In this document: positions 9,908-23,409 of the stretch, one piece after another | Numbering within the stretch: the first letter of the stretch is position 1 | Layout of the letters: each line of letters begins with the position of its first letter | From: a virus | Reading direction: 5' to 3' (one strand) | Length of the DNA stretch: 64,000 bases | Virus record (IMG/VR): IMGVR_UViG_3300028812_000003 | Span: 1-64,000 of that record | Program-made: the position numbers and the translations under genes | Notes under the pieces: model-generated | Told to the model about the DNA's origin: nothing | What the model saw: only the letters and a program-made list of their open reading frames with translations | Database searches by the model: none

Positions 9908-9917
9908 GGGGGACACC

Positions 9918-10165: not shown

Positions 10166-10206
10166 GGGGTTGCCCCCGTCGCGAGTCTATGATTTAATTA
10201 AGTCAT
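10166..10206 (+). promoter_or_regulatory. Promoter/operator module, copy 6
   Basis: GGGGTTGCCC...ATGATTTAATTAAGTCAT (10189-10206). Confidence 0.8.
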
Positions 10207-10249
10207 CGCCGGGAGGACCGGCGACAGACCAAGGAACGAGGAACCGACC

Positions 10250-10663: not shown

Positions 10664-10730
10664 CCGACAGACAGACCCGGGGCCGTCGACCGGCGGCCCC
10701 GGCCCACCGAACACGAGAGGAACCGACACG

Positions 10731-11009
10731 ATGACCGGACCCGAGCACTACCTGGAGGCCGAACGGTTTCAGCGCCAGGCCGAGACGTGGGAGAACGCGG
10801 ACACCGGCTGGAAGGCGGACATGTCCGGAGAGGAGCGGATCGCCCGGCGTACGGCGGACCTGACCGCCGCCCTGGTCCACGCGACCCTCGCCGGCGCTGC
10901 CGCCACGGCGCTGGGGTCCTTGTCGAACGGGATGCCCGGCGAGGACTTCGCGGCGTGGAACGAGGCCGCCGGGGTGCCGACGTTCCCGGGGAACGCCTCC
11001 GCGCGCTGA
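10731..11009 (+). CDS. Hypothetical protein
   Basis: AGGAACCGAC half-SAS; MTGPEHYLEAER start. Confidence 0.7.
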   Translation: MTGPEHYLEAERFQRQAETWENADTGWKADMSGEERIARRTADLTAALVHATLAGAAATALGSLSNGMPGEDFAAWNEAAGVPTFPGNASAR

Positions 11010-11097
11010 ACGCCGCCCGGGGGCGCGGCCGGTGAGCCGTCCGCGCCCCCTGTGAGGCAGCTCAGTCCGAGCGCCCGACCAAGGAATGAGGAAGATC

Positions 11098-11253
11098 ATG
11101 GCAGTGGTGTTCACGTCGCCGGCGGGCCACCCGCGCGGCGTCAAGCCGGCCGAGGCGAAGGCGCAGGAGATCCGCAGCAACGGCGGACAGGCCGAGGTGC
11201 GGATGGACCCGGCCAGCGACACGTTCCGCGTGCACGTCCCGGACGAGGACTGA
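11098..11253 (+). CDS. 51-aa hypothetical protein (not in ORF track)
   Basis: SAS at 11077; MAVVFTSPAGHPRG...VHVPDED*. Confidence 0.65.
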   Translation: MAVVFTSPAGHPRGVKPAEAKAQEIRSNGGQAEVRMDPASDTFRVHVPDED

Positions 11254-11266
11254 CCGCAGAACCTGT

Positions 11267-11312
11267 GCCCCGGGGTTGTCCGCCCCGGGGCTTCATGGTT
11301 TAATTAAGTCAT
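11267..11312 (+). promoter_or_regulatory. Promoter/operator module, copy 7 (TTGTC box inside hairpin)
   Basis: GCCCCGGGG-TTGTCCG-CCCCGGGGC then ATGGTTTAATTAAGTCAT (11295-11312). Confidence 0.8.
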
Positions 11313-11358
11313 AACGGCCGTTAGGTCGGAGACCAAAGACCAAGGAAAGTAGGGCCCC

Positions 11359-11820
11359 ATGACCAGCTACTCCGTGGAGCGACCGGTGCGGCGCAAGCCG
11401 TCCGGCCCCGCGTCCCGCGTCCGCCCCGGGCTGGTGCACCTGCGCCCCGGCGAGGCGACGATGGGCCAGCCGGTGACCATCCGCACGCTGGACGAGGACG
11501 GCGACGAGGTGGAGTTCCCGGCCGTCTACGTGCGCACCGACCGCACGCACCTGTACTGCGCCAAGGCCGGCGAGGAGCAGTCCCGCCGCTACCGCCCCTC
11601 GCAGGTGTTCCCGCGCCGGGAGACCTACCGCCGCTGGACCGTCACGCTCCAGCACAAGGCGATGGCGGAGGACGGCAGCCGGGACAGCCTGCTGCCGGTG
11701 TTCGTCTCCGCACGCACCGAGCTGGAGGCGCGGTACGAGGCGCTGAAGCAGGTGCGCGCCCGGTTCGGCGCGCGGGCCAACTTCCGGTTCACCCTCCACT
11801 CCGTGAAGCGGGCGAGGTGA
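11359..11820 (+). CDS. Hypothetical protein
   Basis: SAS at 11338. Confidence 0.7.
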   Translation: MTSYSVERPVRRKPSGPASRVRPGLVHLRPGEATMGQPVTIRTLDEDGDEVEFPAVYVRTDRTHLYCAKAGEEQSRRYRPSQVFPRRETYRRWTVTLQHKAMAEDGSRDSLLPVFVSARTELEARYEALKQVRARFGARANFRFTLHSVKRAR

Positions 11821-11821
11821 C

Positions 11822-12334
11822 ATGGCCGTCGACACACTGTCCCGCCGGGCCCTGCTGGAGATGAAGCGGGACAACGACTACGCGCCCCGGTACAGGGTCT
11901 GGCCGCCCGAGGGGTACACCGCCCCGACGGCGGAAGAGTTCGCCGACCTGCTGCGGCGGGCCAAGGGCTACCGCACTTCGCCGGCGTTCCGCTCGCAGTG
12001 GGAACGCCTGGACGACGCGACGGTGCTGCGCCGGGCGCAGCTCTGCGAGCTGACCAGCACGGTGTTCTCCGGTCAGGACAAAGGCTTCGTCTACGACTAC
12101 GCGCGGGCCCTGCGGGCGGAGATGAACCGGCGAAAGATCGTGTTCCGGTCCATCGCCATACTGCGCTGCCAGTCGTGCAGCCACGCCACGGAGCGACTGT
12201 TCGCGAAGCCCTCCGACCTCCCGGACCGGAAGGACGCCGCCTTCTACTGCGCGCGGTGCTGGAGCGGCTACACCCTCGGCGACCTCGCCGACGGCCTGGC
12301 CGACGAGGACGACGAGGCGGAGGACGAGGGATGA
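11822..12334 (+). CDS. Hypothetical protein with CxxC...CxxC zinc motif
   Basis: GAGG RBS; CQSC and CARC; acidic tail. Confidence 0.7.
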   Translation: MAVDTLSRRALLEMKRDNDYAPRYRVWPPEGYTAPTAEEFADLLRRAKGYRTSPAFRSQWERLDDATVLRRAQLCELTSTVFSGQDKGFVYDYARALRAEMNRRKIVFRSIAILRCQSCSHATERLFAKPSDLPDRKDAAFYCARCWSGYTLGDLADGLADEDDEAEDEG

Positions 12335-13338
12335 ACGGCGCGCAGGTTACCGAGATATTCGCGGGCGTCGGCTTCAGCGAGGTGCTGCGGCCCCTCGGCC
12401 TGCACGGCCCGGGGCTGGAAATGGACCCGGCCGCCTGCGCCACCCGACGGGCCGCCGGGCACTGGACCATCGAGTGCGACGTCACCCGGCACCCCACCGA
12501 GCCGTTCGCAGGCACGGGCGGCCTGGTGGGCGGGCCGCCCTGCCCGCCGTTCGGCAAGTCCGGGCGGAGGCTGGGCCTCACCGACCTGCCGCTGGTTCAC
12601 GAGGCCATCGACAGTCTGGCCCGGGGCCGGGACACCCGGGCCGCGCACGCTGCGGGGTGCCTGGACGCCCGGTCCATCCTGACCGCCGAGCCGATGCGCT
12701 GGCTGTACGACCTGCGCCCGGCGTGGGTCGTCCTGGAGCAGGTGCCGTCGGTGCTGCCGGTGTGGGGGCACTACGCGGAGATTCTGGGCGACTGGGGGTA
12801 CAGCACGGCCGCCGGCGTCCTGCACGCCGAGCGGCACGGCGCTGGGCAGAAGCGGCCTCGCGCCCTCCTGCTGGCGTCCCGGGTGCGGGAGGTGTCACTG
12901 CCCGCGTCGACGCACGGCGGGCCGGGACAGCCGCCGCTGGTCGCCATGGCGGACGTCGTCGGGTGGGGGTACACCCGCCGCCCGTCCCCGGCGGTGACCG
13001 GCGGCGGGGTCTACACCGGGGGCGCGGAGCCGTTCGGCAACGGCTCCCGGCAGGCCATGCGGAAGGTCATCGGCACTGACGCGTGGCGGGACCGGGCGCC
13101 GCTGTGCGTGCAGTGCGCGGAGGGCGGGGAGCGGGACCCGGCCGAGCCGTGCAAACACCTGCGGCCGTCCCTGGCCGAGTGCGCGGCGCTCCAGGGGTTC
13201 CGGCCGGACCTCGTCTTCCTCGGCAGGTCCGGCCAGCGGCACCTCCAGGTCGGCAACGCCGTTCCGAAGGCCCTGGCGCTCGCGGCCGTCCTCGCCGCGT
13301 CCGGTGTCGGCGAGCGCGGCGAGGTGCTGGCGGCGTAG
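12331..13338 (+). CDS. DNA (cytosine-5)-methyltransferase
   Basis: EIFAGVG (I), GGPPCPPF (IV), EQV (VI variant), QKRPR (VIII), LQGF, VGNAVP (X). Confidence 0.9.
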   Translation: MNGAQVTEIFAGVGFSEVLRPLGLHGPGLEMDPAACATRRAAGHWTIECDVTRHPTEPFAGTGGLVGGPPCPPFGKSGRRLGLTDLPLVHEAIDSLARGRDTRAAHAAGCLDARSILTAEPMRWLYDLRPAWVVLEQVPSVLPVWGHYAEILGDWGYSTAAGVLHAERHGAGQKRPRALLLASRVREVSLPASTHGGPGQPPLVAMADVVGWGYTRRPSPAVTGGGVYTGGAEPFGNGSRQAMRKVIGTDAWRDRAPLCVQCAEGGERDPAEPCKHLRPSLAECAALQGFRPDLVFLGRSGQRHLQVGNAVPKALALAAVLAASGVGERGEVLAA

Positions 13339-13485
13339 CCGACTGACAGGCGTGGATACGCTCCGTCGGCCGCTACATGGTGACGCCCGCCTGGGACCGC
13401 ATCATCCGCCCGCTGTCCCCCTGAACGACCGACCGCCCCACCCTGAAGCCCCGGAGCCCTCGCGGCCCGGGGCTTCGTCGTGCCC

Positions 13486-13526
13486 GGGGTTGTCTTCCCC
13501 GGCACCCTATGGTTTAATTAATTCAT
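13486..13526 (+). promoter_or_regulatory. Promoter/operator module, copy 8
   Basis: GGGGTTGTCT...ATGGTTTAATTAATTCAT (13509-13526). Confidence 0.8.
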
Positions 13527-13574
13527 CGGGGCGCTGGCCGGGCGGACCGCAGACCAGGGAACGGGGAACCGACC

Positions 13575-14117
13575 ATGACCGAGACGTTCGAGCCGGTGGA
13601 CTTCAGCAACGTGCACGAGGGCGACCGCGTCCAGTTCGTCACCAACGAGAACGGCTACGGCGGGCGCGGCTGGTACGAGCGCACCGGTGCGGTCGTCAAG
13701 GTCACCGAGAAGACCGTCCGAGTCGAGTGCGACGACGCACCGACACGCGTCAAGCGGGACGTCGCGGTCCTGCGCCGGAATGACTGGCACCCGCGCTCCG
13801 TGCGCAAGGCCGCCACCGAGCAGCCGGCCCGCCGGCCGTACAACGCGGAGAACGTGCGGATCGTGGACGCGGGCGTCGTCGTCACCGCCGTGTGGTGCTC
13901 CGACCCCACCGTGGACCCGGCGGTCGCGCTGGAGAACATCCTGCACCGTGACCTGCCGTACGAGGTGGAGGTCATCGCCGAAGCCAGCTGGTTCTTCAAG
14001 AACGAGGGCGCCTACTTCTCCGGGTGGGTCGTGGGCAGCAGCGACCCGATCCCGAACAAGCGCGAGGCGCTGCGGGAGCTGCGCCGCTGCATCGCCGACC
14101 ACTTCACCCGCGACTGA
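13575..14117 (+). CDS. Hypothetical protein
   Basis: SAS at 13552. Confidence 0.75.
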   Translation: MTETFEPVDFSNVHEGDRVQFVTNENGYGGRGWYERTGAVVKVTEKTVRVECDDAPTRVKRDVAVLRRNDWHPRSVRKAATEQPARRPYNAENVRIVDAGVVVTAVWCSDPTVDPAVALENILHRDLPYEVEVIAEASWFFKNEGAYFSGWVVGSSDPIPNKREALRELRRCIADHFTRD

Positions 14118-14134
14118 GGGATGAGGCACAGACG

Positions 14135-14347
14135 ATGGCTGTTAGGACCCTGCGTCACCTCGGCAGCAGCGTGTACGCCACCAGCGACGGCCGTTACCGG
14201 CTGGAGCCGTACAACGACGACACCGAGGTGACGCGCGGCCGAGGCCCGAAGCGCTGGTACGTCATCGACACGACCGGCGCCGAGCCACCCCGCACCGGCT
14301 ACACCGTCTCCCGGTTCCGCCGGGAGTTCTGCACCACCGCTCACTGA
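14135..14347 (+). CDS. Hypothetical protein
   Basis: GAGG RBS; MAVRTLRHLG. Confidence 0.6.
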   Translation: MAVRTLRHLGSSVYATSDGRYRLEPYNDDTEVTRGRGPKRWYVIDTTGAEPPRTGYTVSRFRREFCTTAH

Positions 14348-14424
14348 CCAAGGAACCAGGAACGCAATTCCCGCCCCCGCCCGTATGATCCGGCGCCAGG
14401 GGCGGGGCAGGAGGGATAACGACC

Positions 14425-14640
14425 GTGACGACCAGTGTGCAGAGCCCGGACGAGCGCATCGTGGACCCGGGGTTCACCCGGGCCATGGACACCACCGAGA
14501 CGGCGATAGCGGAGCTGCGCGGCCTCGGCGTGCCGATGGACCAGGCGATCGTCGTGGTGCAGCGCGTCTACAGCGCCGGCCGGGACCGGGGCCTGCACCT
14601 CGGCCTGCGGATGCTGGACGTCCCGGCCGCCGCGTCCTGA
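14425..14640 (+). CDS. Hypothetical protein
   Basis: AGGAGG RBS, GTG start. Confidence 0.6.
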   Translation: MTTSVQSPDERIVDPGFTRAMDTTETAIAELRGLGVPMDQAIVVVQRVYSAGRDRGLHLGLRMLDVPAAAS

Positions 14641-14672
14641 CGACCACCGACCAAGGAACGAGGAACCGACTC

Positions 14673-15554
14673 ATGACCGTCTACGCGCTGAAGCACCCCG
14701 ACGGCCGCCGGCTGTACCACCTGCCGGTGCCGGACGCGTTCGGCCGGCCCGGGTTCACCGCCCGCGCCAAGTTGACCGGGATGTTCGCCGACGGCCGCCC
14801 GATGGCGGAGCTGCACGGCGACTGGTGGGCCACGGACCGCGAGGCCGTCCGGCTCACCGCCACGGCTCAGCCCCGGCCGAAGACCGTCGGCTACCGGCTG
14901 ATCGACCCGAACGCGGAGTCCGTGCGCTACCCGGCCACCCTCACCGTCGAGGAGCGGAACGAGCGCGTGAGGGGCGACGAGGACGCGCTGTGGTCGTTCT
15001 ACACGGACGTCACCGAGGAGCAGCCGCCGCTGGAGCACGTCTACGACGGCCCGGTGGTGTTCCTGGAGGGCCGGGAGCCGCCGGCACCTGACGAGCCGCA
15101 GTGGGTCGCGCAGCTCCCGTACATGCTGGCCGAGCGGACGGAGTACGCGCACCTGTTCCCCGGGCACATCCCTGGCCTGGCCGCCCACCTGATGGCCGTC
15201 TTCAAGGGGATGCCGCGCGTCGACTTCGTCTCCCTGAACTTCCAGAACAGGCCCGGCGTGCACGTGAGCCTGTACGTCCCGTACGACGAGCCCCGCACCG
15301 AGTGGCGTGCCAACACCGGACGCGGCGGCCGGCCGCTGAAGTCGGGCAGGCACGTGCCGGTGAAGGTCAACCGGCGTCTGACTCTGCCGATCCCGGACCG
15401 GGTCGCGGCCGACAACTACGCCGAGGCGCTGGAGCAGTGGCAGCAGCAGGTCACCCACTGGACGGGCGTGGTGGAGTCCGTGTCGGTCGCCGCGTGCAGC
15501 CACTGCGACGGCAAGGGCTACGTCTCGCACGGCGCGGAGCAGTACGGCCGCTGA
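14673..15554 (+). CDS. Hypothetical protein with C-terminal CxxCxGxG motif
   Basis: SAS at 14646; CSHCDGKG. Confidence 0.75.
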   Translation: MTVYALKHPDGRRLYHLPVPDAFGRPGFTARAKLTGMFADGRPMAELHGDWWATDREAVRLTATAQPRPKTVGYRLIDPNAESVRYPATLTVEERNERVRGDEDALWSFYTDVTEEQPPLEHVYDGPVVFLEGREPPAPDEPQWVAQLPYMLAERTEYAHLFPGHIPGLAAHLMAVFKGMPRVDFVSLNFQNRPGVHVSLYVPYDEPRTEWRANTGRGGRPLKSGRHVPVKVNRRLTLPIPDRVAADNYAEALEQWQQQVTHWTGVVESVSVAACSHCDGKGYVSHGAEQYGR

Positions 15555-15573
15555 CGGCCGGCCAGACTCGCCA

Positions 15574-15621
15574 GGGTCCCGGGGTTGTGCGTCCCGGGGC
15601 CCTGTGGTTTAATTAAATCAA
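15574..15621 (+). promoter_or_regulatory. Promoter/operator module, copy 9
   Basis: Hairpin containing GGGGTTGTGC, then GTGGTTTAATTAAATCAA (15604-15621); heads the unit that contains the tRNA-like RNA. Confidence 0.75.
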
Positions 15622-15657
15622 TGGCCGGGTGGACCGGCCGGGAACGAGGAACCGACC

Positions 15658-16245
15658 ATGAGCGCACCCCGCAAGGGCGGAGGCCACAGCAAGGGCCAGT
15701 CCATGCCGTACGCCGTCGTGTACGCGTGGGACGGCGACAAGCCGGTCCGAAACGCGAAGTGGACCCTGGGCGCGGCCGAGGCCGCGATGCTCGACACGCT
15801 GCGCGCCGCGAACGCGCGGGGCGGAGAGCTGGAGATCCGGGTCACCGACCGTGCGACCGGCGAGACCGTGGTGGAGCCGCAGCGCTGCGCCGTGTGCCGC
15901 GACCAGTGGGCCACCGAACTCGGCCGCACCGACGGCGGGTACACGCTGTGCGGCACCTGCGACGAGGACGACCTGTCCGCCGATGAGCCGGTGACCCCGG
16001 CCGCGCCCGAACTGTCGGCCCCGCTCCTCGCGGCCCTCCGGGCCAAGGGGCTGGACCCCTCCGCGCGGCCGGACGGCACGGTGACCGTGACCACGAACGA
16101 CATCGACTGGACGCTGCGCCCGGAGCCGCACGCGGTCACGGGCGAGCCGTGCGGCGTGTGGTCGGCCGTCGGCCCCGTCGGCTCGCGCGGCATGTTCGGC
16201 GCGTCCAACGCGGCGGAGTTCATCGCCCAGCGCACCACCCCGTAG
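15658..16245 (+). CDS. Hypothetical protein with zinc motif
   Basis: SAS; CAVC...CGTC. Confidence 0.7.
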   Translation: MSAPRKGGGHSKGQSMPYAVVYAWDGDKPVRNAKWTLGAAEAAMLDTLRAANARGGELEIRVTDRATGETVVEPQRCAVCRDQWATELGRTDGGYTLCGTCDEDDLSADEPVTPAAPELSAPLLAALRAKGLDPSARPDGTVTVTTNDIDWTLRPEPHAVTGEPCGVWSAVGPVGSRGMFGASNAAEFIAQRTTP

Positions 16246-16312
16246 ACCTGGCGCACGACGGCCGGGGCACCGTCGCCCCGGCCCCACCGATCACGGAAAC
16301 GAGGAACCGACC

Positions 16313-16909
16313 ATGACCAGGCAGACCGCCGCCCCGCTGGAACACGCCAGCCTGAACCCCTCAGCCCGTCAGGCGCGCGAAATCGCACGAACCGTCACCG
16401 AGGGGCACCTCCTGCTCAGCCCGCCGTACCAGCGCGGCAGCGTGTGGACGACCGACCAGCGCATCGCCCTGGTGGAGTCCTGGCTGCGCGGCCTGCCCGT
16501 TGGCGTTGTCATCCTCGCCGACCGGGCCACCGAGGAGTGGCGCACGGCCAACCCCGGCCGCGACCCGTACGAGACGGGCGGTGCCTTCTGGGCGGTCATC
16601 GACGGCCGGCAGCGACTCACCACCGCGTGCATGTGGTTCGCCGGCGAGTTCGCCGTCCCCGCGTCATGGTTCCCGACCGACCGCATCGAATTCACCGAGG
16701 ACACCTGCGACGGCCCGTACGTCCGGTACACCGGTCTGACCGTGCCGGGGCAGCGGATTTTCGCCAACCGAGCGCAGTTCATGGTCGCCGAGACGAAGGC
16801 GTGCGCGACCGAGGCAGACGAGGCCAGGTTCTACCTGCTGGTCAACGGCGGCGGCACGCAGCAGACCGAGGCCGACATGGCCAACGCGGCCCGCGTCGCG
16901 GGTCACTGA
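16313..16909 (+). CDS. DUF262 (GmrSD N-terminal, ParB/Srx-like) domain protein
   Basis: PPYQRGSVW, LVESWLRGLPVG, VIDGRQRLTT. Confidence 0.85.
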   Translation: MTRQTAAPLEHASLNPSARQAREIARTVTEGHLLLSPPYQRGSVWTTDQRIALVESWLRGLPVGVVILADRATEEWRTANPGRDPYETGGAFWAVIDGRQRLTTACMWFAGEFAVPASWFPTDRIEFTEDTCDGPYVRYTGLTVPGQRIFANRAQFMVAETKACATEADEARFYLLVNGGGTQQTEADMANAARVAGH

Positions 16910-16929
16910 CCGCCGAGACGAGGAACGAC

Positions 16930-17181
16930 ATGAACAAGAACCTGCTGAAGGCCCTGGCCGAGATGGAGGACGGCGACGACCGGCCCGGTGTGAAAGCCCT
17001 GTCGACGTACGACATCCGTGAGTGGGCCGAGGACCCCCACGGGGGTGGTCTCCCCGCCGTCTCCGCCGACGCATTCGCCAAGTGGCTGGACGGAGTCTTC
17101 TACGACTGGAGCGAGGACGGCGAGACGACCAACGAGGACATTCTGAAGGGTGCGCGGGCTCACTGGGTCGGCGAGGCGTAG
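16930..17181 (+). CDS. Small acidic hypothetical protein
   Basis: CGAGGAACGAC-ATG. Confidence 0.7.
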   Translation: MNKNLLKALAEMEDGDDRPGVKALSTYDIREWAEDPHGGGLPAVSADAFAKWLDGVFYDWSEDGETTNEDILKGARAHWVGEA

Positions 17182-17245
17182 CACGACGGCCGGCCGGGAG
17201 CCGCGATCCCGGCACCGCTCGCAGGCTCACGGGCCTGCGGCACAC

Positions 17246-17344
17246 GGGGCTGTAGCACAGTCAGGCAGTGCACCCGTGAAGCGCGTTCCTTGGTCGGTTC
17301 CCGCGCTCCGGGAGACTCCGGTTCGAGTCCGGACAGGCCCACCA
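17246..17344 (+). ncRNA. tRNA-like RNA with anticodon loop replaced by an extended hairpin bearing an anti-SAS loop
   Basis: Acceptor GGGGCTG/CAGGCCC + ACCA; TA; D arm GCAC-AGTCAGGCA-GTGC; CCCG/CGGG extended by AGCGCG/CGCGCT; loop TTCCTTGGTCGGTTCC (17286-17301); T arm TCCGG-TTCGAGT-CCGGA. Confidence 0.85.
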
Positions 17345-17380
17345 CCGACAGACCACCGACGACCAGGGAAGTGAGGAAGC

Positions 17381-18049
17381 ATGAGCGCACGAGAGTGGGT
17401 CTACGCCCGGTTGACCGGGGCCCGCATCAGCCCGGAAGACGCGGCCCGGAAGCTGGACGACTACCACGAGGAAGCGCGCCGGGAGATCCTGGGCAGCGAC
17501 CTGAACCCCTCCAGCCTCGTGCTGGACGCGCAGGCGTACCGGCGGCTGCGAGACGGCATCCAGGCCACGATGGCCGACCCGGACCGGTGGGACCAGGACG
17601 GGGCTGAGGACTCGATCCTGGCCGACTACGTGAAGTGGCTGGCCGACGGCAAGCCCGCGCGGGACGACGGCTGGGACGGGGAGATGCCTTCCCGGCAGAC
17701 GCTGCCCGACGTCCTGCGGGGCGCGGCCGACCGGATCGACGCGGAGGACGTGCCGCAGACCGCCGAGGACACGGCCGACTTCTGTGACGGCGCCCGATGG
17801 GCCACGGCCCAACTGCGAGCCATCGCCGGCGAGGCGGACGCAGCGCCCGAGGACATCGGCTGGCTGCCCGACTGGCTGGCGGGGCTGGCCCGGGACCACG
17901 CCGCGTCGCTCCTGTCCGACGACGAGCGCGCGATCCTGCGCTACGCCGTGGGCCTCGCGCAGGAGCAGATGTTCTCGCGCGGTGACGAATTCACCGACGC
18001 CGACGAGGCGGCGCTGGAGTCGCTGAAGCGTCTCGCGGGCGAGGGGTAG
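17381..18049 (+). CDS. Hypothetical protein
   Basis: SAS variant at 17361. Confidence 0.75.
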   Translation: MSAREWVYARLTGARISPEDAARKLDDYHEEARREILGSDLNPSSLVLDAQAYRRLRDGIQATMADPDRWDQDGAEDSILADYVKWLADGKPARDDGWDGEMPSRQTLPDVLRGAADRIDAEDVPQTAEDTADFCDGARWATAQLRAIAGEADAAPEDIGWLPDWLAGLARDHAASLLSDDERAILRYAVGLAQEQMFSRGDEFTDADEAALESLKRLAGEG

Positions 18050-18051
18050 CC

Positions 18052-18231
18052 ATGGCGACGTACGTGAAGGCGTCCGACACGGACCCGTTGAACGTGGAGC
18101 CCCGACCTATCTGCAACGCGGGCTCACGGTTCGACCCGGAAGGGTTCCCGCTACCGGTCGGCGACGACCAGCCCCGCCGCTGGGTCCCGCTGTGGGGTGG
18201 TCCCTGCACCGCCTGTGGCACGCCCTGCTGA
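18052..18231 (+). CDS. 59-aa hypothetical protein (not in ORF track)
   Basis: GAGGGG RBS; ends CTACGTPC; hairpin follows. Confidence 0.5.
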   Translation: MATYVKASDTDPLNVEPRPICNAGSRFDPEGFPLPVGDDQPRRWVPLWGGPCTACGTPC

Positions 18232-18288
18232 CCCCGCACAGCCCGAAGCCCCGGAGCCCTCACGGCGCCGGGGCTTCGTCGTGTCCGC

Positions 18289-19104
18289 TCACCGCGTGAG
18301 GCGGTCGATCTTCCCGGCGAGGTCGCGGACCTGCGCGGCCAGCACCTGACCCCGTTCCGGATCGGCCTCCAGGGCGTCGGCGATGACCCGCCCGCGCAGC
18401 GCCCGGTGGGCACCGCGCAGCGCGGCCAGACCCTGTTCCAGCCGGACGAGTGCGCGGGCCTGCTCGGGGGTGTGCTCGGTCACCGGCTCCGCCGGCTGCC
18501 CCTCGGCCGGGGCGGGCGCGGGCGGCGGAAGGTAGTTGAGCCGGTCGGCCGCTCCCCGGATCGCCTTGACGGTGACCTTGTCGCCGGACTGCCGTGCGGC
18601 GGCGACCACCTCGCGCACGGCGACCTCCCCGTGGGCGGCGAGGACCGGGGCGAGGGCGCGGGCCTGCGACTCCACCGGCGCCGTGTCGAAAATTTTCGAC
18701 ATGACCAGCATGACCGGGGCGGCGTCGATGAGCTGGTAGGCGCGGGTGCGGTCCATGTCCCACCGCTGCCTGATGTAGTCCTCGAACGTCTCGTGCGTCA
18801 GCCGGAACAGGGTGTCGTCCCGGATCGCGCGCAGCGCCGTCCCGGCCTCCACGACGAACCGTGCGCGGGCCGCCTTGAGCGACCCGGCGGCCGTCTCCTG
18901 CGCCTCGGAGATGGCCGCCTCGAACGCGGCGAGACGCTGTTCGTCGGTGCCGGTGACGGCCGCCGGGTCGAGCGGCCGGGGTGCGAACGGGTCCGGCGTC
19001 TCGGGTTGCGCGGGCAGCAGCGGGTTGACGGCCGGCGCGGCGACGCGGGACCGGGCTCCGGTGAGCAGCGCGGCGCGGTCGACGCGGGGGCGTGCGGTGC
19101 TCAC
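18289..19104 (-). CDS. ParA partner, putative centromere/DNA-binding protein
   Basis: Translationally coupled to parA; TFEDYIRQRWDMDRTRAYQLI HTH-like segment. Confidence 0.65.
   Translation of the reverse strand: MSTARPRVDRAALLTGARSRVAAPAVNPLLPAQPETPDPFAPRPLDPAAVTGTDEQRLAAFEAAISEAQETAAGSLKAARARFVVEAGTALRAIRDDTLFRLTHETFEDYIRQRWDMDRTRAYQLIDAAPVMLVMSKIFDTAPVESQARALAPVLAAHGEVAVREVVAAARQSGDKVTVKAIRGAADRLNYLPPPAPAPAEGQPAEPVTEHTPEQARALVRLEQGLAALRGAHRALRGRVIADALEADPERGQVLAAQVRDLAGKIDRLTR
18684..18701. promoter_or_regulatory. Perfect palindrome TGTCGAAAATTTTCGACA; candidate parS
   Basis: AT-rich perfect inverted repeat inside the ParA-partner gene; second copy at 8416. Confidence 0.45.
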
Positions 19105-19766
19105 CGGGTCACCTCGTCCAGCAGCTCGCCGGCGAGCAGCGCCATGGGGCTGCCCTGCTCTATGCGGGGCGGGCGGCCGAACGCCTGCGCGTAGCCGTCG
19201 CGGCCGTCGCTGCGGGGCACCTCGGTACGCATCACGGTGAAGCCGGCGCCCGTCAGGTCTTCCCGCGTCTCGCGGGCGGAGGACGCGGAGCGGTTGACCA
19301 TCGTCATGAGCAGCAGCAGCCGGGGCGGCACGACGCCGACGGCTTCCAGTTGCTCGACTGCCTTGAGCACCGAGCCGGCGCGCTCCAGCTCTATCGGGGT
19401 GGGCTGCACGGCGAGGACGACCAGGTCACTGGCGGCCAGCACGGCGAAGTGCGCGTTCCCCGACCGGCGCTCCCACGCCCCGGTGTCGATGAGCGCCAGG
19501 CCGTGGGGTGGGGTGAGCCGGCGGGCCTCGTCGGCGATGCGGGACGCGGCGGGCGCGCGGTAGACCGGGGCGCCGAGATCCGCGCTGTCCGACCAGGCGT
19601 ACAGGCTGCCGTCCTCCTGCTCGCCGGGGTCGTCGGCGTCGATGCCGACGGCGGGGACGCCGGTGGAGCCCCAGTGCGCGAGCAGGTGACCACAGGTGGT
19701 GGATTTGCCGCTGCCGCCCTTGCCGATGACGCCGATGCGCCTGCCCTCGGCTGGTAGTCGTGTCAT
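19101..19766 (-). CDS. parA: ParA-family partition ATPase (short type, no N-terminal HTH)
   Basis: KGGSGKST deviant Walker A, IDADD, LIDT, SDLVVLAVQPTPIEL. Confidence 0.9.
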   Translation of the reverse strand: MTRLPAEGRRIGVIGKGGSGKSTTCGHLLAHWGSTGVPAVGIDADDPGEQEDGSLYAWSDSADLGAPVYRAPAASRIADEARRLTPPHGLALIDTGAWERRSGNAHFAVLAASDLVVLAVQPTPIELERAGSVLKAVEQLEAVGVVPPRLLLLMTMVNRSASSARETREDLTGAGFTVMRTEVPRSDGRDGYAQAFGRPPRIEQGSPMALLAGELLDEVTR

Positions 19767-19843
19767 GCCTGTCTCCCGGTTCCTCGGTCGGTGGTCCGGG
19801 ATGAGCGTAGCGAGCGCCGGGCGGGCTCCGCCGGAAGGGTCGC

Positions 19844-19885
19844 GGGTGTTGTCCCGGACGGGCGACTATGATTTAATTAAGTCAC
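19844..19885 (+). promoter_or_regulatory. Promoter/operator module, copy 10
   Basis: GGTGTTGTCC...ATGATTTAATTAAGTCAC (19868-19885). Confidence 0.8.
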
Positions 19886-19930
19886 CGGGACGGACGGCCG
19901 GACCGGCAGACCACGGAACGAGGAACCGAC

Positions 19931-20206
19931 ATGCGGCAGACGACATGGGCCGAATGGGAGCCGGACGCCATGAGCGAGGCGGCGGAGCTGGAGGGGTACA
20001 CGGACCTGACCGCGTTGAAGGTCCCCGAGCAGCGGCTGGTGGAGTCCATGCCGTACCACGCCGCGTTCTCCGACTACCGCTTCCACGTCGTCGGCTGCGC
20101 CGACTGCCGGCGCGACGACCGGGCGGACTGCCCCGAGGGCGAGGCCCTGCTGGCCGTCTCCCGCATCGGCGTGGACGAACAGCACCGCGCCGCCGCGCAC
20201 AACTGA
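19931..20206 (+). CDS. Hypothetical protein
   Basis: SAS at 19909; H..GCADC...CPEG. Confidence 0.7.
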   Translation: MRQTTWAEWEPDAMSEAAELEGYTDLTALKVPEQRLVESMPYHAAFSDYRFHVVGCADCRRDDRADCPEGEALLAVSRIGVDEQHRAAAHN

Positions 20207-20239
20207 TCGAACCGGAACCGACCAGGGAACGAGGAAGAC

Positions 20240-21439
20240 ATGACGACGCACGCGCAGGCACCCGAGACGGCCCCGGCCCGCTTCACCACCACCCACCGCG
20301 AACTGTCCGACGCGTTGAAGACCGTGGCGCTCGGGGTCGCCGCCAAGCCGCCCGTCCCCATCCTGGGCGGGGTGATGGCCGAGACGTCCGACGGCGCGCT
20401 CACCTTGCGCGCGTTCGACTACGAGACTTCCGTGTCCGTCCGCGTGGACGGCGGGACGGGAGGCGACGGGGCCAGCCTGTTCAACTTCTACGACGCGAAG
20501 GACGTCCTGGCCGCCGCTGTCGCCGGCGAGAAGACGGCCGTGGCCGCCCGCACGCGAGTCACCGTGGACGACGGGACGCTGTCCACGCCGGACCTGGCGG
20601 TGCCGCTCAACACGCTGCCGCTGGAGGAATACCCGGCCTTCCCGCCGGACGCCCCGGGGCAGGTGACCGTGAACGGCGCGGAGTGGTTCGCGCGGGTGGC
20701 CCGTGTGCTGCCCGCCGCCGCCGGCCGGGACGACATGCTGCCGGCGCTGACGTACGTGCACCTGCGCATCGCCGGCGGAGTGCTGCGCCTGACCGCCACC
20801 GACCGTTACCGCGTCACCGTGGGCGAGGTGGAGGCGATAGACGGAGGCCGGGCGGAGACTGCCGCACTGGTGCCCGCGTGGCTGCTGGAAAAGATGTCCA
20901 GGCTGCTGGGCAGGCACACCGGCCCGGTCACCGTCGGGGTGATGGACGACTGGGTGACGTTCACCGTCGGAGCGGTGACGGTGACGGTGCGTTGCCCGGT
21001 CGCGGCGGGGGACTTCCCGGACCTGTGGGGCATGCTCCCGTCGGGGGCGTTGCCGCTGGCCGTGCGGGTGGACCGTGAGGCCCTGACGCGGGCGGTCCGC
21101 AAGGCTCACGCCCTGTCCAAGGCCAAGGGTCTCAAGGCGCCGCACGTGCTGCTGGAGTTCGCCCCGGCTGGCGTGACCGTCTCGCCGGGCCTGGACGACG
21201 GGGTGCAGGACCGGGTGCGCGGGGTCGCCGTGGGCGGCGAGGCGCTGGCCGGCGGGAGCCTGGACGCCCCGATGGTGGTGAACGGGGCGTACCTGCTGGA
21301 CGCCCTCGGGACGTTCAACGGTCCGGCGGTGGTCGTCCACGCGCGGACCTCGCTCAAGCCGTTCGTCCTCACCGACGGCGAGGCCGTCACCGGCGAGGGC
21401 TTCGTGCACATGCTCATGCCGGTGCGGCTCAAGCGCTGA
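20240..21439 (+). CDS. dnaN: DNA polymerase III beta-clamp-like protein
   Basis: PPVPILGGV, LRAFDYETS, EEYPAFP, LTATDRYR, GDFPD, NGAYLLDAL, HMLMPVRL C-terminus. Confidence 0.85.
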   Translation: MTTHAQAPETAPARFTTTHRELSDALKTVALGVAAKPPVPILGGVMAETSDGALTLRAFDYETSVSVRVDGGTGGDGASLFNFYDAKDVLAAAVAGEKTAVAARTRVTVDDGTLSTPDLAVPLNTLPLEEYPAFPPDAPGQVTVNGAEWFARVARVLPAAAGRDDMLPALTYVHLRIAGGVLRLTATDRYRVTVGEVEAIDGGRAETAALVPAWLLEKMSRLLGRHTGPVTVGVMDDWVTFTVGAVTVTVRCPVAAGDFPDLWGMLPSGALPLAVRVDREALTRAVRKAHALSKAKGLKAPHVLLEFAPAGVTVSPGLDDGVQDRVRGVAVGGEALAGGSLDAPMVVNGAYLLDALGTFNGPAVVVHARTSLKPFVLTDGEAVTGEGFVHMLMPVRLKR

Positions 21440-21482
21440 CCGCACCGTACTCAACTGACCGAACCAGAACCGAGGAGACGAC

Positions 21483-21809
21483 GTGAGCAACGTAACCGAG
21501 GCCGTGGGCCGGCTGATCGCCGACTGGCAGGATGCCCGCGCGGCGCTGGCCGAGCTGGAGCGCGCCGAGCACCCGGACATCACCGACAGCCACGGCCGGG
21601 TGTGGACGTGGCGCGGGCGGGGCGACCTGTACCGGCACTGCGGCATCGCCGCGCCCGCCGACATGATCAACAACTTCGGGCTTCCGTCGCAGCGGTCACT
21701 CGACAATCCGAACTCCGACCCGTGCGGCATCTGCCTGGACGGCCGTGAGCGTCGCGCGCCCAAGTGCCGCCCGGAGTGGAACTGCTCGCACAAGTGGTGC
21801 CAGAGCTGA
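21483..21809 (+). CDS. Cys-rich hypothetical protein
   Basis: GAGGAG RBS, GTG start. Confidence 0.7.
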   Translation: MSNVTEAVGRLIADWQDARAALAELERAEHPDITDSHGRVWTWRGRGDLYRHCGIAAPADMINNFGLPSQRSLDNPNSDPCGICLDGRERRAPKCRPEWNCSHKWCQS

Positions 21810-21821
21810 CCGAACCGCCGA

Positions 21822-21870
21822 GGGCCCCGGGGTTGTCGACCTCGGGGCCCTTATGATTTAATCAATTCAT
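21822..21870 (+). promoter_or_regulatory. Promoter/operator module, copy 11
   Basis: Hairpin containing TTGTCG; ATGATTTAATCAATTCAT (21853-21870). Confidence 0.8.
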
Positions 21871-21913
21871 CGGGCCGGACAGCCGGCCCGGCGGACCAAG
21901 GAACGAGGACCCG

Positions 21914-22078
21914 ATGACCGACCCGCGCACCCTGCTGATGCGTCCCGTCGACCAACCGCTGTACGGCGAGGCCGCGAAGGCGGCCGGCCGGCTGCTGCGG
22001 CTCCCGGTGGACGAGCCGCTGTACGGCGAGGCCGCCCGCGTCATCGGCCAGGCACTGACCAAGGAATCGAGGAACTGA
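21914..22078 (+). CDS. 54-aa peptide with internal repeat (not in ORF track)
   Basis: SAS at 21894; LLxxPVDxPLYGEAA twice. Confidence 0.65.
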   Translation: MTDPRTLLMRPVDQPLYGEAAKAAGRLLRLPVDEPLYGEAARVIGQALTKESRN

Positions 22079-22284
22079 TGCTGAAGTCGACGAAGCTGGG
22101 CGCGGCCATGTTGGCCGTCGGAACGACGAGCGCCCTGGCGGCGTCCGGCGCGGCCGAGGACCGCGCCGCCGTCCTCGCCGTGACCACGGGCCTGGCGTCC
22201 GGCGCCTTCATCGCGCTGGGTGCCACGACCCTGATCATCGGGTGGACCGCGCGGCGCCCGGCCGCCGAGGCGGACAAGCACTGA
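22078..22284 (+). CDS. Small membrane protein
   Basis: SAS at 22057; two hydrophobic segments. Confidence 0.65.
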   Translation: MLKSTKLGAAMLAVGTTSALAASGAAEDRAAVLAVTTGLASGAFIALGATTLIIGWTARRPAAEADKH

Positions 22285-22298
22285 CCGAACGAAGCCGG

Positions 22299-22345
22299 CG
22301 CCCCGGGGTTGTCTTCCCCGGGGCGTTATGGTTTAATTAATTCAT
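22299..22345 (+). promoter_or_regulatory. Promoter/operator module, copy 12
   Basis: CGCCCCGGGG-TTGTCTT-CCCCGGGGCG then ATGGTTTAATTAATTCAT (22328-22345). Confidence 0.8.
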
Positions 22346-22389
22346 CAGCCGGACACGCCGGCCGAGGACTACGGAAGAAGGAACCGACC

Positions 22390-22674
22390 ATGCAGCTCTC
22401 CCGCCAGGACATCGTCACCGCCGCCGAGAACATCGAGCTGAGCGAGGACGACTACAGCATCCGCGAGTCGTACCCGGCCAGCTACGGCGAGACCTGCGCC
22501 GGCGTCGTCCTCCCCAGCACCGGCGAGGTGACCGAGTTCATGGTCTCGCTCGCGCTGCTGCTCGCCGAGGACGGCCGGGGCGAGGACGCGCGGGAGCTGG
22601 CCCGCAAGACGCGCACCGACTCGATGGGGTTCAGCACCATCGCCTACTGGGACGGCGTCGAGATCACCGACTGA
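22390..22674 (+). CDS. Small acidic hypothetical protein
   Basis: GGAACCGACC-ATG; TDSMG motif. Confidence 0.75.
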   Translation: MQLSRQDIVTAAENIELSEDDYSIRESYPASYGETCAGVVLPSTGEVTEFMVSLALLLAEDGRGEDARELARKTRTDSMGFSTIAYWDGVEITD

Positions 22675-22701
22675 CCGCCCGGGGCCGTTAGGCCCCAACC
22701 C

Positions 22702-22772
22702 GCTCCCGTGGGATAACGGATGTCCGCCGGGCCCTCAACCCGGAAGTGCCGGATCGTGACCGGCCGGGAGCA
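22702..22772 (+). tRNA. Atypical tRNA, Glu(CUC)-like
   Basis: GCTCCCG/CGGGAGC acceptor; GGAT-AACGGAT-GTCC; CCGGG-CCCTCAA-CCCGG; AAGT; GCCGG-ATCGTGA-CCGGC; no encoded CCA. Confidence 0.7.
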
Positions 22773-22806
22773 CTCCCCGCACCCCCGACCAAGGAAAGCA
22801 GGACTC

Positions 22807-23250
22807 ATGGACGCACTCACGATCCCGGGGACGGTCCTGGGCGCCGCGCTGAGGTTCACGCCTCCCGAGGACGGCAAGCCGGCCATGACCGTGGAAGGGC
22901 TGTTCGCCGGGCAGTACACCACCGTGCTGCTGTCGGCCGACTGGCTGCTCCCGCTCGCGGCGTGGTTCGCCGGCGAGGCGCAGCCGGCCGCCCTCGGGGA
23001 CCGGCCAGGCACGCTGTACGGGGCCAGCCTCGCCGTCCACGGCGACGAGACGGCCACCGTCTGGAACACGTACACCTGGGCTCGGCTGGAATGCCTCACG
23101 CCGTACGGCGACGCCCGGGTGGCCATCGGCCCGCGCGGCAAGGAGTACGGGACGTCCGTGCTGCTCCCGCCCGAGGGCCGCCAGTCGGCGGCGGCCTGGC
23201 TGCGCCGGACGGACGCCGAGGACTGGACGCCGCGCACCGCGACGGCCTGA
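22807..23250 (+). CDS. Hypothetical protein
   Basis: SAS at 22787. Confidence 0.7.
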   Translation: MDALTIPGTVLGAALRFTPPEDGKPAMTVEGLFAGQYTTVLLSADWLLPLAAWFAGEAQPAALGDRPGTLYGASLAVHGDETATVWNTYTWARLECLTPYGDARVAIGPRGKEYGTSVLLPPEGRQSAAAWLRRTDAEDWTPRTATA

Positions 23251-23409
23251 CCGGCCCGTTCGGCGATACGCACCACCGCCGGCACACTCCGAGCCGGTAC
23301 GCCGTGGCCCCTCCCCCACCGGGCCCGGCGTCACAGCGCCCCGTCCGCACCCCACTGGACGGGGCGCTCGCACCACCGCATCACCTGACCAAGGAACAGG
23401 GGGCCCGCC

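What the first reader, a model, noticed from the sequence alone, without database searches (positions are those of the whole stretch)
17246..17344. tRNA-scaffolded RNA whose anticodon loop is antisense to the start motif of about 30 genes: candidate regulon-wide translational control system
Seen in sequence: a tRNA body with acceptor stem GGGGCTG/CAGGCCC (6 of 7 pairs), U8-A9, a D arm with GG, a T loop TTCGAGT and an encoded ACCA end. The 7-nt anticodon loop is replaced by a further 6-bp stem (AGCGCG/CGCGCT) capped by a 16-nt loop TTCCTTGGTCGGTTCC. The reverse complement of 17284-17301 is GGAACCGACCAAGGAACG. It contains both halves of the start-associated motif (ACC)GACCAAGGAACG-AGGAACCGACC-ATG. 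There are 15-nt perfect matches at 4280, 6805 and 14646; an 18-nt match with one G-U at 20214 (before dnaN); and GGAACCGACCA matches reaching the A of the start codon at 2923, 10250, 13575, 15658, 16313 and 22390. Many variants (GACCAGGGAA, GACCGAGGAA) are A-to-G changes tolerated as G-U pairs with this loop. Established knowledge: P1/P7 C4 RNA and P4 CI RNA are RNase P-processed structured antisense RNAs, but they act on one local operon, and start-associated sequences in actinobacteriophages have no identified trans partner that I know of. Inference: host tRNA-processing enzymes mature and stabilise this RNA, which then pairs over the Shine-Dalgarno/start region of dozens of accessory mRNAs. 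It could be a delayed shut-off (it lies inside one of the same cassettes, downstream of module copy 9) or a tRNA-mimic guide that recruits ribosomes to those mRNAs.
Basis: partly seen in the sequence, partly recalled or inferred. Interest (0 to 1): 0.95.

Follow-up and report, generated by a model that had tools for sequence, protein, structure and literature searches.

The report
tRNA-shaped antisense RNA against phage leaders
A family of about 80-100 kb Streptomyces phage-plasmids carries a conserved tRNA-shaped RNA gene whose tip is the base-pairing partner of the private start signal in front of 20-35 of the element's own non-structural genes, so it is a testable candidate partner for the long-unexplained start-associated sequences of actinophages, although nobody has yet shown that the RNA is made.

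Summary
Positions 17246-17344 (+) match the Rfam tRNA model at 43.4 bits, with a 32-nt insert where the model has a 9-nt anticodon segment. I found about 20 homologues, all in Streptomyces-associated phage-plasmid-like elements. In 16 aligned copies, 14 of 27 base pairs show changes on both sides, so this is a real structured RNA gene.

The hairpin loop always contains UCGGUUCC. It can pair with the leader motif at two positions:
- a distal box, (C)CGACCAAGG(AA);
- a start-proximal box, GGAACCGAYCA, where pairing ends on the A of ATG.

Between 18 and 31 gene starts per main-clade genome carry at least 8 contiguous complementary bases, against 1-3 for shuffled loops. One divergent genome has loop GAUC and boxes GATC where the main clade has GGUC and GACC. 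Related phages without the RNA lack the motif, and host chromosomes almost lack it.

The most likely function is an antisense RNA matured by tRNA-processing enzymes that blocks ribosome binding on the element's non-structural mRNAs. Expression, processing and the direction of the effect are inferred. No RNA run was available. This scan noted the same family earlier on other genomes.

The parts
17246..17344 (+). tRNA-like RNA gene (TLS). Acceptor 17246-52 with 17334-40. D arm 17255-71. Anticodon stem 17273-76 with 17309-12. T arm 17317-33. Discriminator A plus CCA at 17341-44.
   Evidence: Rfam tRNA 43.4 bits with a 32-nt insert. In 16 aligned homologues, 14 of 27 pairs change on both sides and 94% of cells are paired.
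17280..17307 (+). Extension hairpin that replaces the anticodon loop: stem AGCGCG/CGCGCT and a 16-nt loop at 17286-17301.
   Evidence: Fold. The stem covaries in 4 of its 7 pairs (helix 4). The loop core CCTTGGTCGGTTCC is invariant in the main clade, and TCGGTTCC is invariant in all 16 aligned copies and in the further metagenome copies.
17193..17213 (+). Conserved 5' hairpin (GCCGGGA, loop GCCGCGA, TCCCGGC). It starts 12 nt after the stop codon of the upstream gene and precedes the TLS in all homologues.
   Evidence: Present in all homologues. Its stem covaries in the G013-type copies, which have GGCGGA/TCCGCC.
17220..17239 (+). Extra hairpin (CGCAGGC...GCCTGCG) inserted between the 5' hairpin and the TLS. 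Among the homologues examined it is seen only in this record and in L186/G011.
   Evidence: Sequence comparison of homologues.
16930..17181 (+). Upstream 83-aa gene with no Pfam family. The TLS unit follows its stop codon directly, so the two are probably co-transcribed.
   Evidence: No promoter-like site lies between 15400 and 18300.
15572..15625 (+). Hairpin plus AT-rich palindrome module in front of the cassette that contains the TLS. It is the likely source of the transcript.
2900..2925 (+). Full start-associated motif (distal box GACCAAGGAA, proximal box AGGAACCGACC, then ATG). Other copies with both boxes: 10227-10252 and 13552-13577.
20214..20242 (+). Motif before dnaN. It matches the 18-nt antisense of the loop region with one A-to-G change.
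1483..23412 (+). Left arm of non-structural genes, with 27 sense copies of GACCAAGGAA allowing 1 mismatch. Several proximal boxes lie before ATGs (2923, 10250, 13575, 15658, 16313, 22390).
51900..63986 (-). Leftward non-structural genes with minus-strand motif copies (51941, 52883, 54064, 55790, 56041/56054, 63960). The portal-side structural block, about 27-50 kb, has none.
17361..17383 (+). Variant motif GACCAGGGAA before the gene just downstream of the TLS. In the homologues inspected this position always deviates, as GACCA(G/T/C)G.

Best explanation
The gene encodes a stable small RNA built on a tRNA body. It is transcribed as part of an early or accessory-gene cassette, directly after the stop codon of the upstream gene. 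The host's tRNA-maturation enzymes are then expected to release it: RNase P at the 5' end, a 3' nuclease, and CCA addition where CCA is not encoded. These enzymes recognise the conserved acceptor/T-arm half.

A long GC hairpin replaces the anticodon stem-loop. Its apical loop presents 5'-(Y)UUGGUCGGUUCC-3'. This loop base-pairs in trans with the start-associated leader of the element's own non-structural mRNAs, at either of two positions:
- over the distal box (C)CGACCAAGG(AA), which contains an upstream Shine-Dalgarno-like AAGGA;
- over the proximal box GGAACCGAYCA, which covers the working Shine-Dalgarno GGAA, the spacer and the A of AUG.

Either duplex keeps the 30S subunit off the site. 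As the RNA accumulates, translation of the whole gene class falls. This could serve as a delayed early-to-late shut-off or as an RNA layer of silencing and immunity in the plasmid-prophage state.

Shown by sequence analysis: the gene's conservation, its fold, the complementarity, the co-occurrence with the motif, and the fact that the motif is private to the element. Inferred: expression, processing, pairing in vivo, and repression rather than activation.
For: 1. tRNA fold. Rfam tRNA scores 43.4 bits. U8, A14, G18-G19, the T loop UUCGAGU and discriminator A are present.

2. Structure conservation. About 20 homologues were found. In 16 aligned sequences, 14 of 27 pairs change on both sides and 94.4% of cells are paired. 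No shuffle out of 500 reached these values, and slid controls gave 17-51% paired.

3. Loop conservation. The flanking stems vary and compensate, yet TCGGTTCC is invariant in all copies and CCTTGGTCGGTTCC throughout the main clade.

4. Complementarity in every main-clade genome. 18-31 gene starts carry at least 8 contiguous complementary bases, against 1-3 for shuffled loops. With one G.U allowed, 30-37 starts reach at least 9, against 3-6.

5. Two pairing positions. One ends at -10 to -15. The other ends exactly on the A of ATG, in 5-9 genes per main-clade genome.

6. A matching change in loop and target. In G019 the loop has GAUC, and its boxes read AACCGATCATG 5 times and never the GACC form. 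Main-clade loops have GGUC, with AACCGACCATG 3-8 times and the GATC form 0-2 times. In G019, 4 gene starts have at least 10 pairs against 0.2 for shuffled loops, and all four duplexes end at position 0.

7. Co-occurrence. The 12 genomes with the RNA have 3-8 copies of GAACCGAYCATG. Five portal-related genomes without it have 0-1 and no enrichment of the motif at gene starts.

8. The motif is private to the element. 13 of 17 copies of CGACCAAGGAA in a 9.1-Mb host genome, and 7 of 9 in an 8.2-Mb one, lie on the roughly 93-96 kb element contig.

9. The 3' tail of 16S rRNA explains only AAGGA of the motif.

10. No other antisense-oriented copy of the motif was seen in the record. Each of the nine main-clade genomes has exactly one copy of the loop core.
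Against: - No expression data exist; no RNA run was available.
- The acceptor stem is imperfect in many copies, with 5-6 of 7 pairs.
- Four homologues have a shrunken D arm.
- In most main-clade homologues the two loop bases opposite the last AA of GACCAAGGAA are not complementary. They are instead predicted to pair inside the loop (AACC with GGUU), which leaves a 6-nt apical loop UUGGUC.
- In G019 the loop no longer matches the abundant distal box GACCAAGG. In G024 the excess over shuffled loops is weak: 5 starts against a mean of 1.15 and a maximum of 4 at 10 or more pairs.
- The matching loop/box change is a single evolutionary event. The second GAUC loop (L385) lies on a 1.5-kb contig where the boxes cannot be counted.
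- Co-occurrence is confounded by phylogeny.
- One small RNA would have to titrate about 30 mRNA species.
Confidence: 0.5

Rival explanations
1. The pairing is the same but the effect is opposite. The tRNA-shaped RNA activates or licenses translation of motif-bearing mRNAs, whose Shine-Dalgarno sequences are weak (AAGGA/AGGAA). It could do this by opening the leader, by protecting it from nucleases, or by docking its tRNA body on the 30S subunit or ribosome and positioning the start codon.
For: The proximal pairing ends precisely on the A of ATG in 5-9 genes per main-clade genome. The tRNA tertiary-interaction bases and the acceptor/T-arm half are kept.
Against: [quoted passage not shown] The arm is about 25 nt longer than an anticodon arm, so it cannot occupy a ribosomal tRNA site in the normal way. 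No precedent is known to me, and no data bear on the direction of the effect.
Confidence: 0.12
2. The complementarity is not used for RNA-RNA pairing. The motif would be a double-stranded DNA site for an element-encoded protein, like the asymmetric stoperators of cluster A mycobacteriophages. The copy inside the RNA gene would be one more such site, or the loop would be a protein-binding or otherwise functional RNA surface whose likeness to the motif reflects shared origin.
For: Promoter-plus-palindrome modules show that DNA-level control exists in the same cassettes (note e1-6100866). The distance from the distal box to the ATG varies between about 19 and 28 nt. In cluster K phages the homologous hairpin keeps a pyrimidine-rich loop even where it no longer matches the motif.
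Against: All other copies are strictly sense-oriented and tied to start codons, and they contain the Shine-Dalgarno sequence. The inverted copy is displayed in a loop whose flanking stem covaries to keep pairing, which a duplex-DNA site would not need. The G019 loop change follows the box next to the start codon. The motif lies outside the palindromic operators.
Confidence: 0.15
3. The RNA is a decoy or an auxiliary tRNA-like molecule aimed at a host factor such as an anticodon nuclease, a tRNA-modifying or tRNA-dependent enzyme, or a Ro/Y-RNA-type quality-control system. In that case the match to the motif is secondary.
For: The tRNA body is well kept. A DUF262/GmrSD_N-like defence-type domain lies two genes upstream. 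A second, non-canonical tRNA-Glu lies in the same arm.
Against: This does not explain why the only invariant stretch is the antisense of the element's own leader, nor the co-occurrence with it. The YrlA model scores 15 bits against a gathering score of 69. No universally linked protein gene lies within 5 kb.
Confidence: 0.08
4. It is a decaying tRNA pseudogene that was hit by an inverted insertion carrying the motif, and it has no function.
For: Acceptor stems are imperfect. ARAGORN does not call it. The fold z-score of the window copy alone is only -0.95.
Against: It is conserved across elements whose portals are only 67% identical. Both-side changes occur in all five helices while the loop stays invariant. 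Two body types keep the same hairpin. The 5' hairpin is conserved as well.
Confidence: 0.03

Closest known systems
C4 antisense RNA of phage-plasmids P1/P7 (Rfam RF01695) and CI RNA of satellite P4 (from established knowledge, not re-read here)
   Same: Encoded by a phage or phage-plasmid. A small structured RNA cut out of a longer transcript by RNase P. Loop sequences are complementary to ribosome-binding regions of the element's own mRNA. It acts as an RNA repressor or immunity factor.
   Different: No sequence or structure homology: no C4 hit even at E up to 10. The body here is a full tRNA cloverleaf. The target is a motif shared by 20-35 dispersed genes (4-6 in distant relatives) rather than one operon. 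Processing and function are not shown here.
Start-associated sequences (SAS) of cluster K mycobacteriophages (Pope et al. 2011, PMC3203893; PMC11373665; PMC12699233)
   Same: A short asymmetric motif that includes the Shine-Dalgarno sequence. It lies just upstream of ATG starts, in one orientation, on non-structural genes only, and is nearly absent from the host. Its partner is stated to be unknown ('either RNA or protein'), and the need for experimental verification is still stated in 2025.
   Different: The motif sequence differs (GACCAAGGAA...GGAACCGACC against GGGATAGGAGCCC), as do the host genus and the phage group. Here a conserved RNA carrying the antisense can be named. In cluster K only K1-like phages have an exact antisense copy in a hairpin loop.
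tRNA (Rfam RF00005)
   Same: Acceptor, D and T arms, the bases for tertiary interactions, a discriminator base, and often an encoded CCA.
   Different: No 7-nt anticodon loop and no anticodon. The arm is extended to a stem of about 11-13 bp with a loop of 15-18 nt. Acceptor stems often have one or two mismatches. In four homologues the D arm is reduced.
Other tRNA-like non-coding RNAs: tmRNA tRNA-like domain; bacterial Y-RNA-like YrlA (RF02553)
   Same: They reuse the tRNA acceptor/T-arm module, presumably for processing, stability or protein recognition.
   Different: ARAGORN finds no tmRNA and no tag reading frame. YrlA scores 15.2 bits against a gathering score of 69, and its topology differs because its ends lie in the long stem.
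Trans-acting antisense RNAs that present the recognition sequence in a hairpin loop (CopA, RNAI, Sok type; from established knowledge)
   Same: A GC stem presents a single-stranded loop. The apical UUGG fits the YUNR U-turn pattern. The target overlaps a ribosome-binding site.
   Different: Those RNAs are cis-encoded opposite a single target. This one is trans-encoded and matches a shared leader motif.

Membership tests
tRNA (RF00005) | Cloverleaf with acceptor, D and T arms and the conserved tertiary bases | tested here: met
   43.4 bits against a gathering score of 29. Stems covary. U8, A14, GG and the T loop UUCGAGU can be read.
tRNA (RF00005) | A 5-bp anticodon stem with a 7-nt loop, U33 and an anticodon | tested here: not met
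   A 32-nt insert replaces the 9-nt model segment. Default ARAGORN makes no call. With introns allowed it gives only a forced tRNA-Arg(CCT) reading with an 8-nt 'intron'.
tRNA (RF00005) | Aminoacylation and use in decoding | not testable with these tools
   Needs acid gels or charging assays.
C4 / CI type phage antisense RNAs | Homology to Rfam C4 (RF01695) | tested here: not met
   No C4 match at E up to 10 in 17100-17500.
C4 / CI type phage antisense RNAs | Loop complementary to the ribosome-binding region of the element's own mRNA | tested here: met
C4 / CI type phage antisense RNAs | Release from a precursor by RNase P, and repression of the target | not testable with these tools
   Only the substrate-like acceptor/T-arm half and the position directly after an upstream gene can be seen.
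Start-associated sequence systems (cluster K type) | An asymmetric motif with an embedded Shine-Dalgarno sequence just upstream of starts, in one orientation, on non-structural genes, rare in the host | tested here: met
Start-associated sequence systems (cluster K type) | Consensus GGGATAGGAGCCC and membership of cluster K | tested here: not met
   The motif differs. There is no nucleotide match to any of 50,697 phage records.
tmRNA | tRNA-like domain plus a tag reading frame | tested here: not met
   ARAGORN -m finds no tmRNA. The permuted-tmRNA model scores 12 bits against a gathering score of 47.
YrlA / bacterial Y RNA | Match to RF02553, with a Ro-binding stem formed by the two RNA ends | tested here: not met
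   15.2 bits against a gathering score of 69.
Trans-encoded regulatory sRNA | A discrete expressed transcript | not tested
   No RNA run holds the sequence. This is not evidence either way.

The most novel reading that the evidence does not exclude
The RNA is not a repressor but an RNA initiation-specificity factor. In this reading, a tRNA-shaped guide uses its tRNA body to engage the 30S subunit or an initiation factor. Its loop pairs with positions -10 to 0 of the leaders, stopping exactly at the A of AUG. That would give the element a private channel of translation for its weak-Shine-Dalgarno gene class.
Probability: 0.1. Interest if true: 0.95.

Novelty: new variant of a known kind. Interest (0 to 1): 0.8.

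Why it matters
Start-associated sequences were described in 2011, and papers from 2024 and 2025 still call their role unknown or unverified. Here an analogous motif system comes with a named, conserved candidate RNA partner, in elements carried by culturable Streptomyces strains: S. africanus NRRL B-24243, NRRL S-455 and S1D4-14 with pS1D4-14.2. That makes the question directly testable with northern blots, reporters and compensatory mutants.

If the reading holds, it would be the first case known to me of a phage controlling a whole class of its genes through one small RNA that reads a shared leader. It would also be a natural example of a tRNA body used as the chassis for an antisense RNA. 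The same design could serve as an orthogonal translational switch in Streptomyces engineering.

Tried and rejected
- RNA evidence: no RNA holder was listed for 15600-19200.
- Intron-containing tRNA: ARAGORN with introns gives only a forced tRNA-Arg(CCT) with poor stems. Rejected.
- Duplex-energy counts with RNAduplex: uninformative. Shuffled loops also reach -14 to -16 kcal/mol on these GC-rich leaders. I replaced this with counts of contiguous pairs.
- Nucleotide search of 50,697 phage records: no match. Only one plasmid record matched.
- 16S rRNA mimicry or pairing: the loop shares 8 nt (UGGUCGGU) with 16S. About 0.2 such matches are expected by chance, so this was not pursued. The 16S 3' tail pairs only with AAGGA of the motif.
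- A linked protein partner: no gene family lies within 5 kb of the RNA in all 12 genomes. The best is present in 8.
- Extending the idea to cluster K: the single reverse-oriented SAS of Anaya lies in the apical loop of a hairpin in a conserved non-coding region. The loop is exact only in K1-like phages, has two central mismatches in Amgine, Unicorn and Shandong1, and has no match in Keshu, while the SAS itself is unchanged. This is not independent support.
- Host shut-off by targeting host mRNAs: the motif is almost confined to the element. Rejected.
- Complex prediction, structure prediction and protein database searches were not relevant and were not used.

Full report
**What the window is.** The window is the first 64 kb of a 76.5-kb IMG/VR virus record with 71.6% G+C. 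It encodes a portal, a large terminase interrupted by a Hint (intein) domain, DnaN, an amidase and a ParA-like ATPase. No cultured phage record matches it at the nucleotide level. The nearest named relative is the 98.8-kb linear plasmid pS1D4-14.2 of Streptomyces sp. S1D4-14. Whole contigs of 92-96 kb in Streptomyces africanus NRRL B-24243 and in Streptomyces sp. NRRL S-455 and NPDC017936 carry the same RNA gene; the first two contigs have the same lengths as IMG/VR records G004 and G008. I therefore read it as a Streptomyces phage-plasmid.

**The observation.**
- The Rfam tRNA model matches 17246-17341 at 43.4 bits (gathering score 29, E = 4e-8). All four arms align, and a 32-nt insertion replaces the 9-nt anticodon segment of the model.
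- Default ARAGORN and the filtered whole-window Rfam run miss it.
- ARAGORN with introns allowed gives only a forced reading.
- The predicted fold is a cloverleaf whose anticodon arm continues into a 6-bp GC stem with a 16-nt loop at 17286-17301.

**The motif.**
- GACCAAGGAA is the most frequent 10-mer of the record.
- With one mismatch allowed there are 40 copies. Most lie 9-28 nt upstream of an ATG on the same strand, on the rightward left arm (1.4-23.4 kb) and on leftward non-structural genes (52-72 kb).
- The copy inside the RNA loop is the only one antisense to the local direction of the genes.
- The full form reads GACCAAGGAA-CG-AGGAACCGACC-ATG.
- In two host genomes of 8-9 Mb the 11-mer CGACCAAGGAA is almost confined to the element's contig: 13 of 17 copies and 7 of 9 copies. 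The motif is private to the element, as Pope et al. reported for cluster K start-associated sequences.

**It is a real RNA gene.** I collected homologues by exact-pattern scans outside and inside the loop, and by running a covariance model over records related through the portal protein.
- In 16 aligned sequences, 14 of 27 pairs show changes on both sides and 94.4% of cells are paired. No shuffle out of 500 reached these values, and slid controls gave 17-51% paired. The alignment was fitted to the model, which favours the structure. A MAFFT alignment of the 11 closest copies already gave 4 such pairs.
- Two body types exist. One has a normal D arm. The other has a shrunken D arm and a 7-bp anticodon stem that itself covaries (CCUCGCA/UGCGGGG, CCCCGCA/UGCGGGG, CCUCGCA/UGCGAGG).
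- A hairpin that starts just after the stop codon of the upstream gene precedes the RNA in all copies and also covaries. The flanking protein genes differ between genomes. The unit of conservation is therefore the 5' hairpin plus the tRNA-like RNA, probably co-transcribed with the upstream gene. No sigma-70-like promoter lies in 15400-18300. The nearest hairpin-plus-palindrome module is at 15572-15625.

**The loop.** The stems change and compensate, but the loop does not. CCUUGGUCGGUUCC is invariant in the main clade and UCGGUUCC in every copy. The variants are:
- CUUUGGUCGGUUCC (G013 type);
- UCUGAUCGGUUCC (G019 type);
- UUCGGUCGGUUCC (G024);
- CUUUGAUCGGUUCC (L385).

**Complementarity to gene starts.** I called ORFs by third-position G+C and looked at -40 to +3 of candidate starts.
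- In the nine main-clade genomes, 18-31 starts have at least 8 contiguous Watson-Crick complementary bases to their own loop. Shuffled loops give 1-3.
- With one G.U allowed, three main-clade genomes tested have 30-37 starts with at least 9 pairs, against 3-6 for shuffles.
- The duplexes fall at two positions. One ends at -10 to -15, on the distal box (C)CGACCAAGG(AA). The other ends exactly on the A of ATG, on the proximal box GGAACCGAYCA, in 5-9 genes per main-clade genome.
- The universally conserved loop half, UCGGUUCC, pairs with the proximal box. That box holds the working Shine-Dalgarno sequence GGAA at the usual spacing.

**Co-variation and co-occurrence.**
- In G019 the loop reads GAUC where the main clade reads GGUC. 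Its own boxes read AACCGATCATG 5 times and never the GACC form. Main-clade genomes have AACCGACCATG 3-8 times and the GATC form 0-2 times.
- G019 has 4 starts with at least 10 pairs, against 0.2 for shuffles, and all four duplexes end at position 0.
- G013 and G024 keep GGUC against mostly GATC boxes, which G.U pairing tolerates. In G024 the excess over shuffles is weak.
- Five portal-related genomes with no covariance-model hit of the right length (G014, G015, G017, G025, G027) have 0-1 copies of GAACCGAYCATG and no enrichment of the motif at gene starts.
- This co-occurrence is consistent with a functional link, but shared descent confounds it.

**Limits.**
- No RNA run holds the region, so expression is unproven.
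- Acceptor stems often have one or two mismatches.
- In most main-clade copies the loop bases opposite the last AA of the distal box are not complementary. They are predicted to pair within the loop, leaving an apical UUGGUC. The effective duplex is then about 8-12 bp, seeded from a loop that fits the YUNR pattern.
- G019's loop no longer matches the distal box, which is still frequent there.

**Mechanism.** The duplex at either position covers a Shine-Dalgarno-like element, and the proximal one also covers the spacer and the first base of the start codon. Occlusion of 30S binding is therefore the simplest reading.
- The conserved acceptor/T-arm half, the discriminator A and the CCA (encoded in 12 of 16 aligned copies) fit release and stabilisation by the tRNA-maturation machinery, as is known for the RNase P-processed C4 and CI RNAs of P1/P7 and P4. 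That comparison rests on established knowledge and was not re-read here.
- The RNA sits inside one of the cassettes it would control. This suits a delayed shut-off of the non-structural class, or an RNA layer of silencing in the plasmid-prophage state.
- Activation, a DNA-level role for the motif, and a decoy role cannot be excluded. They are scored as rivals.

**Comparison with known systems.**
- The Rfam models for C4, tmRNA and YrlA do not match.
- No paper in the searchable library describes this RNA or a partner for start-associated sequences. Papers from 2011, 2024 and 2025 state that the role of these sequences is unknown or unverified.
- Earlier notes of this scan describe the same family on other genomes (e1-5838614, e1-5912584, e1-5980887, e1-5838615, e1-3648785) and reach a similar reading. 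They are not independent evidence.
- What I did not see in those notes: the divergent homologues, the two pairing positions, the invariant UCGGUUCC half, the GAUC/GATC co-change, the relatives that lack both RNA and motif, and the host-genome counts.

**Side check on cluster K.** Pope et al. noted one reverse-oriented SAS per K1 genome.
- In Anaya it lies in a 385-nt non-coding gap after an intrinsic terminator. It sits in the apical loop (CCUCCUAUCC) of a GC hairpin, in a region with fold z = -5.7 that is conserved in 182 cluster K phages.
- The loop is exactly antisense only in Anaya and SgtBeansprout. It has two central mismatches in Amgine, Unicorn and Shandong1 and no match in Keshu, although all keep GGGATAGGAG.
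- The parallel is suggestive but ambiguous.

**Verdict.** I class it as a new variant of a known kind, namely phage antisense RNAs matured by tRNA-processing enzymes. It is new in its full tRNA chassis and in reading a leader shared by a whole gene class.

Noticed in passing
L281:9849-9900 (Mycobacterium phage Anaya JF704106, 59849-59900): The single reverse-oriented start-associated sequence of this cluster K1 phage lies in the apical loop (CCUCCUAUCC) of a GC hairpin. The hairpin sits in a 385-nt non-coding, strongly structured region after a terminator, and the region is conserved in 182 cluster K phages. The loop is exactly antisense only in K1-like phages. It has two central mismatches in Amgine, Unicorn and Shandong1 and no match in Keshu.
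   Followed up: partly
window 22702-22773: ARAGORN calls a tRNA-Glu(CTC) here, but the whole-window Rfam run at gathering threshold reported nothing.
   Followed up: no
window 17361-17383 and the homologous places in L002, L003, L024, L025, L066, L108, L111: The leader motif of the gene just downstream of the RNA always departs from the consensus at the sixth base (GACCAGGG, GACCATGG, GACCACGG/GACCACGA). This might prevent pairing in cis with the loop inside the precursor.
   Followed up: no
window 58309-60756 (-): The large terminase carries a Hint (intein) domain between its N-terminal part and the ATPase/nuclease domains.
   Followed up: no
L002 (NZ_CP041606.1 89341-89438): RefSeq locus tags jump from FNV66_RS01225 to FNV66_RS01215 exactly at the RNA. 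The gene table available here omits RNA genes, so the record may already annotate a tRNA-like feature there.
   Followed up: no
window 15572-15625: A terminator-like hairpin is followed by the AT-rich palindrome TTTAATTAAA in front of the cassette that holds the RNA. It is one of the repeated promoter/operator-like modules that another note (e1-6100866) describes.
   Followed up: partly
window 16313-16909 (+): A 198-aa protein with a GmrSD_N/DUF262-type domain (E = 6e-17) lies two genes upstream of the RNA, among the accessory genes.
   Followed up: no
G025, G019, G024 (whole records): GATCATG is very frequent (44-68 copies) in these more distant relatives, including G025, which lacks the RNA. 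A GATC immediately before ATG may be a separate start-linked feature.
   Followed up: no
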